Below, one piece after another: positions 26,800 through 29,960 of a DNA stretch of 64,000 bases; the first letter of the stretch is position 1, and every line of letters begins with the position of its first letter. Made by a program: the position numbers and the translations under genes. The notes beneath the pieces are model-generated. The model was given only the letters and a program-made list of their open reading frames with translations, made no database searches and was not told the DNA's origin. The DNA is from Escherichia phage JoYop: sequence record OR769032.1. The stretch is one strand, 5' to 3'.

Positions 26800-27381
26800 C
26801 TAATCTAGCTTTTTAGTTAATTCGTTCCAATGTTTTCTACATAAAGATACGTAAATTTCATCACCAATACAAATTTGATCGCCTTCTTTAACTGGGGTTC
26901 CATCTTCCATTAATCGAGCGGTCATAATAGCTTTTTTACCACAGTGACAAACCGCTTTAAGCTCAATAAGTTTATCAGCAATCGCCAAAAGTTCTTTAGA
27001 ACCTTCAAATAACTTTCCTGCGAAATCAGTTCTTAATCCATAAGCCATAACAGGAACATTATATGTATCAACAATTCGGCTTAATTGGTGTACTTGTTCA
27101 GTTTTTAAAAACTGAGCTTCATCTACAAATACGCAATGAATATCTTTTTGTGCTTCAGCCCATTTATAGAACTCGAAAATATCCATATCATCCGTAATAA
27201 TATTCGCTTCCTGTTTAATTCCAATGCGAGAAACAACTTCACAAACAGAATCGCGAGTATCAATAGCAGGTTTAAGAACTAATACACCCATTCCACGTTC
27301 TTTATAATTATGCGCAGCAGTCAAAAGAGAAGCAGATTTTCCAGCATTCATTGCTGCATAAGTAAAAATTAAACTCGCCAT
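26800..27381 (-). CDS. tk: Thymidine kinase
   Basis: 193 aa; P-loop AAMNAGKS and C-terminal zinc-ribbon cysteines CHCGK...C; recognised as T4 Tk. Confidence 0.9.
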   Translation of the reverse strand: MASLIFTYAAMNAGKSASLLTAAHNYKERGMGVLVLKPAIDTRDSVCEVVSRIGIKQEANIITDDMDIFEFYKWAEAQKDIHCVFVDEAQFLKTEQVHQLSRIVDTYNVPVMAYGLRTDFAGKLFEGSKELLAIADKLIELKAVCHCGKKAIMTARLMEDGTPVKEGDQICIGDEIYVSLCRKHWNELTKKLD

Positions 27382-27390
27382 ATCACCTTC

Positions 27391-27576
27391 TTAAAGCGTA
27401 TTCACATAAGCTATTAATTCATTTTCTTTCTTATCAAACCGATCAGCAAATTCTTCCTGCTGTTCGGGAGATAGCGGGCCGTATTCATCATAAAAGGTGT
27501 TTGCTTCTGTATGCTCATCTAGAAGTTCATGGATAAGCTCAAACAATTTATCTTTTTGTTCTTTACTTAGGCTCAT
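27391..27576 (-). CDS. hypothetical small acidic protein
   Basis: 61-aa ORF, ATG start. Confidence 0.4.
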   Translation of the reverse strand: MSLSKEQKDKLFELIHELLDEHTEANTFYDEYGPLSPEQQEEFADRFDKKENELIAYVNTL

Positions 27577-27742
27577 ATATTAATTTCCAAAAGTTTTAAA
27601 ATAATTCGCTTTTGCTTAAATATTTCCATAGTTAAATGATCAGTATCTTTTTGACCAATTCCAATAGCAAAACCTTTATTAACAGCGAGTTCAATCAAAT
27701 TATCAATTTCACGCAACACTTCATATTGCATCTCAGAATTAT

Positions 27743-27949
27743 TCATTTCGGTTTGCCTTCTTTAACGAAATCTGGATAAGGATAAAACCCCGAATAAAAT
27801 CCTTCACCTTTATGATTGATGCATCCTTTATTAGAACAATAGCACCAATAATCAAAATCACAAGCCATTTCATCATTACATAAAGCAAAGACAACTGGCC
27901 ATTTACACTTTCCACAATGGGCATTTTTAAGAATACTAGTTTGGCTCAT
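27743..27949 (-). CDS. small cysteine-rich protein (possible zinc binding)
   Basis: ATG at 27949 in ATGA overlap with upstream stop; 9 Cys in 68 aa. Confidence 0.4.
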   Translation of the reverse strand: MSQTSILKNAHCGKCKWPVVFALCNDEMACDFDYWCYCSNKGCINHKGEGFYSGFYPYPDFVKEGKPK

Positions 27950-28158
27950 AACCATGTAACCTTTAAGCAATATTCTTCTACGTGTTGTTTACGACCTTTC
28001 TTATCAATAAAAGTATATTCAACGAATGTTCCAATATAGTCTTTATCTACATCATGTGGACTATTAATTGGGCATTTAGTACGGCAAATGCGTTCCCATT
28101 GACGAATAATTTCCACTTTGTTTTTAGGGTCAAATGGATGCGGGTAATGTGCTTTCAT
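27946..28158 (-). CDS. hypothetical protein
   Basis: 70-aa ORF, ATG start. Confidence 0.4.
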   Translation of the reverse strand: MKAHYPHPFDPKNKVEIIRQWERICRTKCPINSPHDVDKDYIGTFVEYTFIDKKGRKQHVEEYCLKVTWL

Positions 28159-28609
28159 AATCTACCACTATTAAATCAATATCAGGAGTAAACATGTCGA
28201 TTAATTTAGAAACCTTATCCCAATCACCGCCAGCAATACCACAACCTATACGTGGAATGTAAATTACCGGTTTAAACAAAAGGGTTTCTGCCTGCAGATT
28301 TAATTCTATCATACAGTTTACTAAAGCACCATAATCAAGATTAGGACCTGGTTCATATTGCGTATACAGGTTGTAACATATGCCAAAACCATTAGGTTTA
28401 TGTTTAAAAACTATAGACATATCACCGAGTTTTTCACGCGAACCATATTCAGTTGTAGTCTTATCTATTTCTAAAATTTTAGGATAAGCCCTTGCTAATT
28501 GACCAGCTACACCACTGCCCATCGTATGAAAACAGTTGCACCCGTGCGCAATAATATTACCTTCAAGAAAGAGGGCGACAATATCGCCCTTGATATATTT
28601 TACAATCAT
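28130..28609 (-). CDS. macro-domain-like protein (possible ADP-ribose binding or hydrolysis)
   Basis: 159 aa; GDIV...IIAHGCNC...MGSGVAG...IGCGIAGG mirrors the macro-domain GDIT / NAAN / GGGV / G-I-Y-G layout. Confidence 0.45.
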   Translation of the reverse strand: MIVKYIKGDIVALFLEGNIIAHGCNCFHTMGSGVAGQLARAYPKILEIDKTTTEYGSREKLGDMSIVFKHKPNGFGICYNLYTQYEPGPNLDYGALVNCMIELNLQAETLLFKPVIYIPRIGCGIAGGDWDKVSKLIDMFTPDIDLIVVDYESTLPASI

Positions 28610-28953
28610 CTAGTACTCAATCCTCGATTATAAGAATCTACTAAACGGTCAACCATTGAACGACAAGCGGCTTTGTCTTTTTCCTCCGCAACTGAACATT
28701 CTAAGGTATTCCACTTTTTAGCATATCGTTTTAATAATGTATCGTTTTTGTATCTACTTGTTTTATCTCTTTCTCCGTCTTTATATGCATATATTAATTT
28801 CTGCGCAAACTCAGATTGACATGCTTTATTTTTCCCACAATAATCTGCCGCAGTGCGGTTCACATACTCCCTAATTTCAGTATATGATGTATCTGCTGAC
28901 GCATAAGCAGAAAATGAAATTAATCCTATACATAAAACCAAAATTTTAGTCAT
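28606..28953 (-). CDS. secreted or periplasmic small protein
   Basis: 115 aa; N-terminal signal peptide MTKILVLCIGLISFSAYASA; 4 Cys in mature part. Confidence 0.45.
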   Translation of the reverse strand: MTKILVLCIGLISFSAYASADTSYTEIREYVNRTAADYCGKNKACQSEFAQKLIYAYKDGERDKTSRYKNDTLLKRYAKKWNTLECSVAEEKDKAACRSMVDRLVDSYNRGLSTR

Positions 28954-29491
28954 TTACTATTTCCAAAAGTTTATTATTTTTAAGGTAATTAGCCTTTTCT
29001 AGGACTTCAGAAGCATATTTAGAACCTGCTTTAACATTCCATCCCGAATTATAAGAGGATATTGCTTTTCTTATATCGCCCTTATGTATATTTAACCAAT
29101 AAGAAAGTTCAATGTACGCCCATGAAGCTGAATTGGATCGTTTATTCAACATTCTTTTTATTTCAGCATCGGTCATATTATAACCAAGTTCCTTAACTCT
29201 TGCTCTCATAGTAGGCAAATAATTTTGGAACATTCCATAAGCGTGATGCTTTGGTTTAGATTTTAAATTAACTCCGCCAGAGCTTTCTTGCCATAAAATG
29301 GCTGCCATTATATGACCTAATCCACTCTTATGAACATTTTGGTGTGTTTTATATTTTCCATCCTTAGAAAACTGTTCCCCGAATTGATACGCGTAACGCA
29401 TGTTATCGAGTTGGACATTACTGAAAGTATGCTCGGAGCTATGTGCCATCATTGAAATGGCCAATAGACCAGCGAGTAGTGCTTTTCTCAT
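28946..29491 (-). CDS. secreted lytic transglycosylase-like protein (SLT/GH23-like)
   Basis: 181 aa; signal peptide MRKALLAGLLAISMMAHS; SLT-type motifs WQESSGG and AYGMFQ, later SYNSG. Confidence 0.55.
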   Translation of the reverse strand: MRKALLAGLLAISMMAHSSEHTFSNVQLDNMRYAYQFGEQFSKDGKYKTHQNVHKSGLGHIMAAILWQESSGGVNLKSKPKHHAYGMFQNYLPTMRARVKELGYNMTDAEIKRMLNKRSNSASWAYIELSYWLNIHKGDIRKAISSYNSGWNVKAGSKYASEVLEKANYLKNNKLLEIVND

Positions 29492-29498
29492 GTTTGCC

Positions 29499-29960
29499 TC
29501 ATTGAGTTTTAATTACTGCTTTAGAAGCCTTTCCTGGTAAACGACGACTGTTGATAATTGCCATCCTGCATTGAAGTGACGGGTCTTTGAACTTCTCATT
29601 AGGTTTACAAACCGTAAATCCAAGCCAAAGATTTCCATCAGTGATTTCTAAACGTCCAGGGCGATATTCAATTCCATCGATAAAATCTTCATCAATATCA
29701 GGACGCGGAGGCATACTCAGGAATTCATTAACTTCTAAAACATGGTCTTTTATTTTATGGAATAATTCAAAAACATATGTCTCATCAATCTCCCGTTGAA
29801 TTGCACGATCAAGAAGATGCTGAGAATATTTTAGATGAAACGATGAGACCCCTGCTGCTTTTGATGCCTCACGAATCTCATTGTTAATTTGACGAAACTC
29901 CGACTCAAAGTGACGACGAAGCTTATTTCGACGGATAAAAACTTCTGTGTTGATAGTCAT
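29499..29960 (-). CDS. regB: Site-specific endoribonuclease RegB
   Basis: 153 aa MTINTEVFIRRNKLRRHFESEFRQ... recognised as T4 RegB. Confidence 0.85.
   Translation of the reverse strand: MTINTEVFIRRNKLRRHFESEFRQINNEIREASKAAGVSSFHLKYSQHLLDRAIQREIDETYVFELFHKIKDHVLEVNEFLSMPPRPDIDEDFIDGIEYRPGRLEITDGNLWLGFTVCKPNEKFKDPSLQCRMAIINSRRLPGKASKAVIKTQ

What the first reader, a model, noticed from the sequence alone, without database searches (positions are those of the whole stretch)
28130..28609. Macro-domain-like protein in the tk-regB interval
The 159-aa protein shows the linear motif order of macro domains: GDIV, then IIAHGCNC in the place of the NAAN box, then MGSGVAG in the place of GGGV, then IGCGIAGG near the C-terminus. 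T-even phages ADP-ribosylate host proteins, and hosts use ADP-ribosylation in defence, so an ADP-ribose-binding or -removing protein would be functionally meaningful. The NAAN box is atypical (HGCNC), so this may be a divergent or different binding fold.
Basis: partly seen in the sequence, partly recalled or inferred. Interest (0 to 1): 0.55.

Follow-up and report, generated by a model that had tools for sequence, protein, structure and literature searches.

The report
Phage macrodomain Tk.4 (anti-DarT2 AdfM)
The 159-residue protein is a genuine macrodomain, the T4-like phage gene tk.4, whose T4 counterpart was recently shown to protect the phage from the bacterial DNA-ADP-ribosylating defence DarTG2, so the finding is correct but already known.

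Summary

It is the tk.4 gene of a Tequatrovirus, in the conserved order tk...tk.3-tk.4-vs-vs.1-regB. Public records already call it 'A1pp phosphatase' or 'macro domain protein'. A 2025 preprint showed that T4 tk.4 (renamed adfM) is the one T4 gene needed to resist DarTG2.

Most likely mechanism: it removes ADP-ribose from thymidines that DarT2 puts on phage single-stranded DNA.

Two refinements come from this work:
- **Active site.** It is not DarG-like. An invariant Gln84 sits where DarG and TARG1 have the catalytic lysine, as in Streptomyces SCO6735 and BT1257, but the long mobile loop of that subclass is absent.
- **Divergent allele.** This Tk.4 is only 58% identical to T4 Tk.4, although most neighbouring genes (rI, rI.1, tk, tk.3, vs, vs.1, regB) are 93-99% identical.

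The 'atypical NAAN box' (HGCNC) is normal for this macrodomain class, not a different fold. Verdict: real, correctly read, already known. Low interest.

The parts
28130..28609 (-). tk.4 coding sequence: a 159-aa stand-alone macrodomain, orthologue of T4 Tk.4/AdfM
28502..28546 (-). Residues 22-36, HGCNCFHTMGSGVAG: the catalytic-Asn loop (N25) and the Gly-rich substrate-binding loop
   Evidence: H22, G23, N25, C26, G33 and A35 are invariant in 60 homologues. N25 aligns with DarG N22 and SCO6735 N27. SCO6735 N27S is almost inactive.
28358..28372 (-). Residues 80-84, NLYTQ: Gln84 occupies the position of the catalytic Lys of TARG1 (K84) and DarG (K80), and of the essential Gln85 of SCO6735
   Evidence: HMM alignment to TARG1 and BT1257. 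MAFFT alignment A2. N80, Y82 and Q84 are invariant. The N-x-Y-[TS]-Q motif is in at least 118 of 120 database homologues and in 79 of 80 bacterial relatives, the other reading N-x-Y-I-Q, so Gln is kept in all 80. SCO6735 Q85A is dead.
28220..28255 (-). Residues 119-130, PRIGCGIAGGDW: the phosphate-binding loop
   Evidence: P119, G122, G124 and W130 are invariant. G122 and G124 align with SCO6735 G126 and G128. The SCO6735 G128E mutant has reduced activity.
28606..28609 (-). ATGA overlap of the vs stop codon with the tk.4 start codon, suggesting translational coupling within the vs-tk.4-tk.3 early gene run
   Evidence: Sequence read directly. T4 and RB32 have the same arrangement. A predicted hairpin covers the SD and ATG (prediction only).
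28110..28560 (.). Divergent allele block: the body of tk.4 is 38-76% identical in DNA to T4, inside a backbone that is 93-100% identical
   Evidence: Sliding-window identity against T4. Per-gene identities: tk.4 58% aa, against vs 96.5%, vs.1 98.9%, tk.3 92.9% and regB 99.3%.

Best explanation
The gene is tk.4 (adfM) of a T4-like phage (Tequatrovirus). It encodes a small stand-alone ALC1-like-class macrodomain that acts as a counter-defence enzyme. The host toxin DarT2, of the DarTG2 toxin-antitoxin defence, ADP-ribosylates thymidines in phage single-stranded DNA and so blocks replication. Tk.4 binds the ADP-ribose between its two Gly-rich loops (residues 30-36 and 121-128) and hydrolyses the thymidine-ribose bond, restoring the DNA. 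The chemistry is probably that of SCO6735 rather than DarG. Gln84, held in place by Asn25, positions the distal ribose for attack by an activated water. DarG and TARG1 use a catalytic lysine instead. What is shown: the fold, class, orthology and residue equivalences (this work), and the requirement of T4 tk.4 for resistance to DarTG2 (preprint). What is inferred: that this 58%-identical allele does the same job, that it acts by hydrolysing thymidine-linked ADP-ribose, and that Gln84 is essential.
For: - Macrodomain family and fold.
- The best structural neighbours are exactly the enzymes known to cleave thymidine-linked ADP-ribose on DNA, namely DarG, TARG1 and the SCO6735/BT1257 group (activities in PMC9411070 and PMC12879935).
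- Orthology to T4 Tk.4: same position between tk.3 and vs, and 58% identity over the full length.
- Genetics in T4: tk.4 was the single significant hit in a transposon screen on a DarTG2-expressing host, and a clean knockout became DarTG2-sensitive (bioRxiv 10.1101/2025.11.20.689424).
- Active-site residues H22, N25, Q84, G122 and G124 are invariant across 60 homologues. They match SCO6735 H24, N27, Q85, G126 and G128. Mutation of N27, Q85 or G128 impairs activity. The H24Y loss of activity was attributed to a disrupted fold, so H24 is not informative.
- An unrelated phage macrodomain, PhiKZ gp104, has been shown biochemically to remove DarT2-made ADP-ribose from DNA, so the strategy exists in phages (PMC13309987).
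Against: - No biochemistry exists for any Tk.4-type protein. The preprint itself says hydrolysis 'seems likely'.
- The allele here is only 58% identical to the tested T4 protein.
- The catalytic lysine of DarG is absent.
- The two lysines that position DNA in SCO6735 (K34, K89) are not kept: S32 stands at the first and there is no equivalent for the second. The long mobile loop of that subclass is missing too.
- Scores against DarG models are weak: 28 bits against a cut-off of 250.
- None of the 25 most frequent Pfam families among the flanking genes of 80 bacterial relatives was a DarT family, so the family as a whole probably has a broader role.
- SCO6735 and TARG1 also act on protein substrates, so DNA need not be the only target.
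Confidence: 0.72

Rival explanations
1. It is a metabolite-processing enzyme, as the historical annotation 'A1pp phosphatase' implies. It would be an ADP-ribose-1''-phosphate phosphatase like yeast Poa1p, or an O-acetyl-ADP-ribose deacetylase, clearing NAD-derived by-products during infection.
Against: The 'phosphatase' label is a transferred domain name, not an assay. The only phenotype on record for the T4 orthologue is loss of DarTG2 resistance. Poa1p F152 corresponds to Ala126 here (alignment to the F152A entry). T4-like phages have no known source of ADP-ribose-1''-phosphate (own knowledge).
Confidence: 0.08
2. It reverses ADP-ribosylation of proteins or RNA rather than DNA. It might trim marks made by the phage's own transferases Alt, ModA and ModB, or undo host ADP-ribosyltransferase toxins that target RNA or proteins.
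For: TARG1 and SCO6735 also de-modify proteins. ALC1-like and other macrodomains reverse RNA ADP-ribosylation (PMC11833690 abstract). T-even phages ADP-ribosylate many host proteins (PMC8120803).
Against: Alt, ModA and ModB make arginine-linked ADP-ribose, which macrodomains are not known to cleave (own knowledge). The screen in T4 found a phenotype for tk.4 specifically with DarTG2, a DNA modifier. No data link it to RNA.
Confidence: 0.12
3. It protects without catalysis, by binding and blocking the DarT2 toxin directly (interaction-inhibition) or by sequestering ADP-ribose-derived molecules.
For: Catalytically dead SCO6735, DarG and TARG1 macrodomains all inhibit DarT in vitro, SCO6735 most strongly. 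A protein-protein interface under an arms race would explain why tk.4 is so divergent inside a conserved backbone.
Against: Every residue needed for catalysis in SCO6735 is invariant across the family, including bacterial members with no recurrent DarT neighbour. That pattern argues for an enzyme. Binding could still add to hydrolysis rather than replace it.
Confidence: 0.08

Closest known systems
T4 Tk.4 / AdfM (anti-DarT factor Macrodomain; bioRxiv 10.1101/2025.11.20.689424)
   Same: Same gene position (tk.3-tk.4-vs), same length class (155 against 159 aa), 58% identity over the full length, and identical catalytic-site residues. Both belong to PHROG 335.
   Different: This is a strongly divergent allele: 66% DNA identity in a backbone that is about 96% identical. 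It has four extra C-terminal residues and IGCGIAGGDW instead of IGAGIGKGNW in the phosphate loop. This allele has not been tested.
Streptomyces coelicolor SCO6735 and Bacteroides BT1257 (Gln-type ALC1-like macrodomains; PDB 5E3B, 2FG1/2AFC)
   Different: Only 26-27% identical. Tk.4 lacks the extended mobile loop, which is 5-6 residues longer in that subclass, and lacks the DNA-positioning K34 and K89.
DarG antitoxin macrodomain of DarTG2 (PDB 5M3I, 5M31/5M3E, 7OMU)
   Different: Tk.4 has no C-terminal DarT-binding domain and no adjacent darT. Gln stands in place of Lys80. It scores 28 bits against a DarG model cut-off of 250.
PhiKZ gp104 'AdfM' of chimalliviruses (Cell Rep 2026, PMC13309987)
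   Same: A phage-encoded stand-alone macrodomain that counters DarTG2. It carries the same name.
   Different: A different lineage. gp104 is a true DarG-type protein (FPTKdnWR motif with K78, PADLOC DarG 133 bits, E 9e-25 to M. tuberculosis DarG). It is barely alignable with Tk.4 by BLASTP, E 0.001 over 31 residues.
Human TARG1/OARD1 and yeast Poa1p
   Different: The TARG1 Lys84/Asp125 dyad corresponds to Gln84/Ala126 here. Poa1p is a phosphatase for ADP-ribose-1''-phosphate.

Membership tests
Macro domain (Pfam PF01661) | Score above Pfam's gathering threshold over the whole domain | tested here: met
   34.4 bits against a cut-off of 22. Residues 22-136 match profile positions 2-117 of 118.
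Macro domain (Pfam PF01661) | Three-layer alpha/beta/alpha macro fold | tested here: met
ALC1-like macrodomain class (TARG1, DarG, Poa1p, SCO6735/BT1257) | Closest structural and sequence neighbours are members of this class, separated from the other classes | tested here: met
DarG antitoxin (NCBIfam NF048014, PADLOC DarG) | Score above the curated equivalog cut-off | tested here: not met
   28.1 bits against a cut-off of 250. PADLOC DarG gives 28 bits, against 133 bits for PhiKZ gp104.
DarG antitoxin (NCBIfam NF048014, PADLOC DarG) | Two-domain protein with a C-terminal DarT-binding domain | tested here: not met
   The protein has 159 aa, and only positions 2-142 of the 338-position DarG profile are matched.
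DarG antitoxin (NCBIfam NF048014, PADLOC DarG) | Catalytic lysine (T. aquaticus K80) in the F-P-T-K motif | tested here: not met
   Gln84 aligns with that lysine.
DarG antitoxin (NCBIfam NF048014, PADLOC DarG) | Encoded next to a darT toxin gene | tested here: not met
   The neighbours are vs and tk.3. None of the 25 most frequent Pfam families among the flanking genes of 80 bacterial relatives was a DarT family. Only the 25 most frequent families are listed, so single cases cannot be excluded.
SCO6735/BT1257 subclass (Gln-type thymidine-ADP-ribose hydrolases) | Gln at the position of the catalytic Lys, buttressed by the conserved Asn; G-x-G phosphate loop | tested here: met
   Q84, N25 and G122/G124 align with Q85, N27 and G126/G128. 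All are invariant in the family.
SCO6735/BT1257 subclass (Gln-type thymidine-ADP-ribose hydrolases) | Extended 'mobile loop', about 5 residues longer than in DarG and TARG1 | tested here: not met
   There is a six-residue gap in Tk.4 relative to BT1257 and SCO6735 directly after Gln84. The loop length equals that of TARG1. The definition of the loop is in PMC9411070.
SCO6735/BT1257 subclass (Gln-type thymidine-ADP-ribose hydrolases) | Hydrolysis of thymidine-linked ADP-ribose on single-stranded DNA | not testable with these tools
   This needs an enzyme assay. It is inferred only from the T4 knockout phenotype.
T4 Tk.4/AdfM orthologous group (PHROG 335) | Full-length homology to T4 Tk.4 and conserved position between tk.3 and vs | tested here: met
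   58% identity, E 6e-70. PHROG 335 E 2.5e-71. Gene order is identical in T4 and RB32.
T4 Tk.4/AdfM orthologous group (PHROG 335) | Required for phage growth on a DarTG2-expressing host | not testable with these tools
   Shown for T4 only.
Poa1p-type ADP-ribose-1''-phosphate phosphatase | Residues probed by mutation in the Poa1p structures (H23, S30, F152) | tested here: inconclusive
   H23 aligns with H22, S30 would fall at T29, and F152 at A126 (alignment to the F152A entry 6LFU). The effect of those mutations was not looked up.

The most novel reading that the evidence does not exclude
Tk.4-type AdfM proteins may form a third mechanistic type of DNA de-ADP-ribosylase: a Gln-based active site like SCO6735, but in the short-loop scaffold of TARG1 and DarG. 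The sharp allele replacement seen here (58% identity inside a roughly 96% identical backbone) may reflect diversifying selection on a protein-protein surface. That surface could serve direct binding of different DarT2 variants, or escape from a host factor that senses or inhibits the phage macrodomain. Selection on the hydrolytic activity alone would not explain the pattern.
Probability: 0.2. Interest if true: 0.45.

Novelty: already known. Interest (0 to 1): 0.18.

Why it matters
The protein is one of the enzymes by which T-even phages erase a host-imposed DNA modification. With AdfN (a NADAR enzyme, active against DarTG1) it gives these phages cover against both DarT families. The family and its role are already on record, so this window adds no discovery.

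It does sharpen two points that the literature seen here does not make for Tk.4:
- The T4-type 'AdfM' has the Gln-type active site of SCO6735/BT1257, not the Lys-type site of DarG. It is therefore a different lineage from the PhiKZ protein that bears the same name.
- The gene exists as deeply divergent alleles within otherwise near-identical Tequatrovirus genomes.

Both points are cheap to test and bear on how macrodomains cleave the thymidine-ribose bond, a mechanism still described as unresolved for DarG.

Tried and rejected
- **Orphan DarG captured from a DarTG2 operon.** Not supported. DarG model scores are weak and the lysine is absent. All 80 closest bacterial relatives are stand-alone proteins whose ORFs are mostly 146-190 aa (seven run longer, up to 327 aa, from the first upstream start codon). 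None of the 25 most frequent Pfam families among their neighbours was a DarT family. Caveat: only the 25 most frequent neighbour families are displayed, and the loci were picked with two motif patterns.
- **Functional link to valyl-tRNA synthetase.** tk.4 overlaps vs, the ValRS modifier, and seven bacterial relatives lie downstream of a class I aminoacyl-tRNA synthetase. Rejected. Six of those seven synthetases were checked against NCBIfam and all six are IleRS, confined to Hyphomicrobiaceae and Jannaschia. Five Ruegeria loci have rpoC instead, so this is lineage synteny.
- **Own promoter or terminator.** The consensus scan found no more promoter-like sites than shuffled sequence (20 found, 23.9 expected). 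The terminator-like hairpin at 28572-28590 lies inside the coding region. The gene is more likely read through from upstream and translationally coupled to vs.
- **Plasmid homologues.** Only distant matches, at most 42% identity, and uninformative.
- **Exact source phage.** Not found. The best records are 94-97% identical.

Full report
**1. Observation**

The window holds one ORF at 28130-28609 on the minus strand, with an ATG start and 159 aa (sequence read).

The ORF lies in a run of minus-strand genes. These are rI, rI.1, tk (26800-27381), three small ORFs, tk.3 (27946-28158), this ORF, vs (28606-28953), vs.1 (28946-29491) and regB (29499-29960).

**2. Is it a macrodomain?**

Yes, by every test available.
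- Pfam Macro (PF01661) scores 34.4 bits against a gathering score of 22, and covers 116 of 118 profile positions.
- PHROG 335 matches at E 2.5e-71.
- Direct sequence search of the PDB finds BT1257 (2AFC/2FG1, E 1e-10), yeast Poa1p, SCO6735, the M. tuberculosis DarG macrodomain and human TARG1.
- A profile of 60 homologues raises these matches to E 2e-19 through 1e-10.
- An AlphaFold2 model built on that alignment has mean pLDDT 94.2 and pTM 0.89.

[quoted passage not shown] Its 'atypical NAAN box' is simply the H-x-C-N form of that class: Poa1p has HSCNC, SCO6735 HVCN and BT1257 HICN.

**3. What gene is it?**

The window comes from a Tequatrovirus. The best public records are 94-97% identical over 25 kb, and none is identical. 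The ORF is the orthologue of T4 tk.4.
- Gene order is the same in T4 and RB32.
- It is 58% identical to T4 Tk.4 over 155 residues without gaps, E 6e-70.

The T4 RefSeq record already says 'Tk.4; contains A1pp phosphatase motif'. Near-identical proteins in other records are labelled 'macro domain protein', 'Appr-1-p processing protein' or 'phosphatase'. Relatives occur in 2768 phage records across many host genera. The domain assignment is public knowledge.

**4. Function on record**

A bioRxiv preprint (10.1101/2025.11.20.689424) screened a T4 transposon library on E. coli expressing DarTG2. It found tk.4 as the single significant hit. A clean knockout became sensitive to DarTG2, and the authors renamed the gene adfM, for anti-DarT factor Macrodomain. 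The authors infer, but do not show, that it removes ADP-ribose from DNA.

DarT2 ADP-ribosylates thymidines in single-stranded DNA. DarG2 reverses this with its macrodomain (PMC11825919).

Separately, a Cell Reports 2026 paper (PMC13309987) showed that PhiKZ gp104 removes DarT2-made ADP-ribose from a TNTC oligonucleotide. That protein is also named AdfM. [quoted passage not shown]

**5. Mechanism: what this analysis adds**

I recovered comparator sequences from PDB alignments and aligned them with the window protein. They were BT1257, SCO6735, TARG1, two DarG macrodomains and PhiKZ gp104. The equivalences are:

| Window Tk.4 | SCO6735 | DarG | TARG1 | PhiKZ gp104 |
|---|---|---|---|---|
| Asn25 | N27 | N22 | - | - |
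| Gly122, Gly124 | G126, G128 | - | - | - |
| Gln84 (NLYTQ) | Q85 | K80 | K84 | K78 |

BT1257 also has Gln at the Gln84 position.

- H22, G23, N25, C26, G33, A35, N80, Y82, Q84, P119, G122, G124 and W130 are invariant in 60 phage-type homologues.
- N-x-Y-[TS]-Q is found in at least 118 of 120 database homologues.
- It is found in 79 of 80 bacterial relatives, and the eightieth reads N-x-Y-I-Q, so Gln is kept in all 80. Those relatives were retrieved with patterns that did not include this motif.

For SCO6735, the Q85A mutant is inactive, N27S almost inactive and G128E impaired. That enzyme cleaves thymidine-linked ADP-ribose on DNA faster than DarG. The proposed mechanism has Gln85, locked by Asn27, positioning the distal ribose while an activated water acts (PMC9411070).

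Tk.4 therefore carries the Gln-type active site, not the Lys-type site of DarG. It is not a plain member of the SCO6735/BT1257 subclass either.
- It lacks the extended mobile loop that defines that subclass. There is a six-residue gap right after Gln84.
- It lacks the two DNA-positioning lysines. S32 stands at K34, and nothing corresponds to K89.

PhiKZ gp104 is a genuine DarG-type protein. It scores PADLOC DarG 133 bits, against 28 and 36 bits for the window and T4 proteins, and E 9e-25 to M. tuberculosis DarG. It is hardly alignable with Tk.4. Two different macrodomain lineages now share the name AdfM.

**6. Origin**

The 80 closest bacterial relatives are 34-43% identical. All are stand-alone ORFs, mostly 146-190 aa, with seven longer ORF calls up to 327 aa.

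Their immediate neighbours are heterogeneous. They include ileS in Hyphomicrobiaceae and Jannaschia, rpoC in Ruegeria, and a few NAPRTase, NAMPT and NADAR genes. None of the 25 most frequent Pfam families among them was a DarT family.

This does not support capture of a DarG antitoxin. It suggests that phages recruited a housekeeping-type stand-alone macrodomain. The tool shows only the 25 most frequent neighbour families, so isolated DarT neighbours cannot be excluded.

**7. Allele divergence**

Against T4, the neighbouring proteins are 93-99% identical.

| Gene | Amino-acid identity to T4 |
|---|---|
| rI | 99.0% |
| tk | 98.4% |
| tk.3 | 92.9% |
| tk.4 | 58.1% (66.5% DNA identity) |
| vs | 96.5% |
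| vs.1 | 98.9% |
| regB | 99.3% |

A sliding window places the divergent block at about 28110-28560. DNA identity decays gradually from the 5' end of the gene. There is a local rise to 76% over the NLYTQ region, and a sharper boundary at the tk.3/tk.4 junction.

In the phage collection, 318 records carry this allele at 90% identity or more. Intermediate alleles at 60-82% identity exist. T4, RB32 and RB51 carry the allele at about 58%.

This is consistent with allele exchange or fast evolution of a counter-defence gene. It is not proof of either.

**8. Expression context**

The vs stop codon and the tk.4 start codon overlap as ATGA at 28606-28609. A predicted hairpin pairs the 3' end of vs with the Shine-Dalgarno sequence and start codon of tk.4. 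T4 and RB32 keep it through a G-U-compatible change. That points to translational coupling, but it is a prediction only. The promoter scan found nothing beyond the level of shuffled sequence.

**9. Verdict**

The protein is a macrodomain, and it most probably removes ADP-ribose as a counter-defence.

It is already known. The domain has been annotated for years, and the T4 orthologue has an assigned anti-DarTG2 role.

Three things remain open. No biochemistry exists for any Tk.4-type protein. The role of Gln84 is untested. It is unknown whether the divergent alleles differ in specificity.

Confidence that this protein is an anti-DarT2 ADP-ribosyl-thymidine hydrolase is about 0.7.

Noticed in passing
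window 27380-27950: This is a second divergent cassette next to tk.4. T4 has tk.1 and tk.2 here. This phage has three small ORFs: 61 aa (PHROG 653), 57 aa (PHROG 3452) and a Cys-rich 75-aa ORF (PHROG 2306, 27743-27970). All are of unknown function. DNA identity to T4 falls to 11-56%, while the flanks are above 90%.
   Followed up: partly
window 28540-28650 (minus strand): A predicted RNA hairpin pairs the last codons of vs with the Shine-Dalgarno sequence and ATG of tk.4. T4 and RB32 keep it, with an A-to-G change that preserves pairing. A second GC-rich hairpin lies inside codons 7-13 (28572-28590) and is also kept in T4. Together with the ATGA stop/start overlap, this suggests translational coupling. 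It was not tested against shuffles or a wider alignment.
   Followed up: partly
window 28130-28158: The 3' end of tk.4 overlaps the start of tk.3 by 29 nt here, against 4 nt in T4. This allele carries four extra C-terminal residues and the junction differs.
   Followed up: no
L007, L022, L038, L039, L046, L066 (upstream ORFs); five other loci with RpoC domains; one search list: Bacterial stand-alone Tk.4-like macrodomains lie directly downstream of ileS in Hyphomicrobiaceae and Jannaschia, and of rpoC in several Ruegeria. A few sit beside NAPRTase, NAMPT or NADAR genes, hinting at a link to NAD/ADP-ribose metabolism in some lineages.
   Followed up: partly
L003:22518-23006 (PhiKZ gp104) versus window 28130-28609: There is a name clash in the literature. 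'AdfM' denotes both T4 Tk.4 (Gln-type, PADLOC DarG 28-36 bits) and PhiKZ gp104 (Lys-type, true DarG-like, 133 bits). The two proteins are barely alignable.
   Followed up: yes
window 28946-29491 (vs.1): Vs.1 (181 aa, PHROG 600, unknown function) has weak matches to lytic tail protein and endolysin families, E 9e-6 to 5e-4. These are consistent with a transglycosylase-like domain.
   Followed up: no
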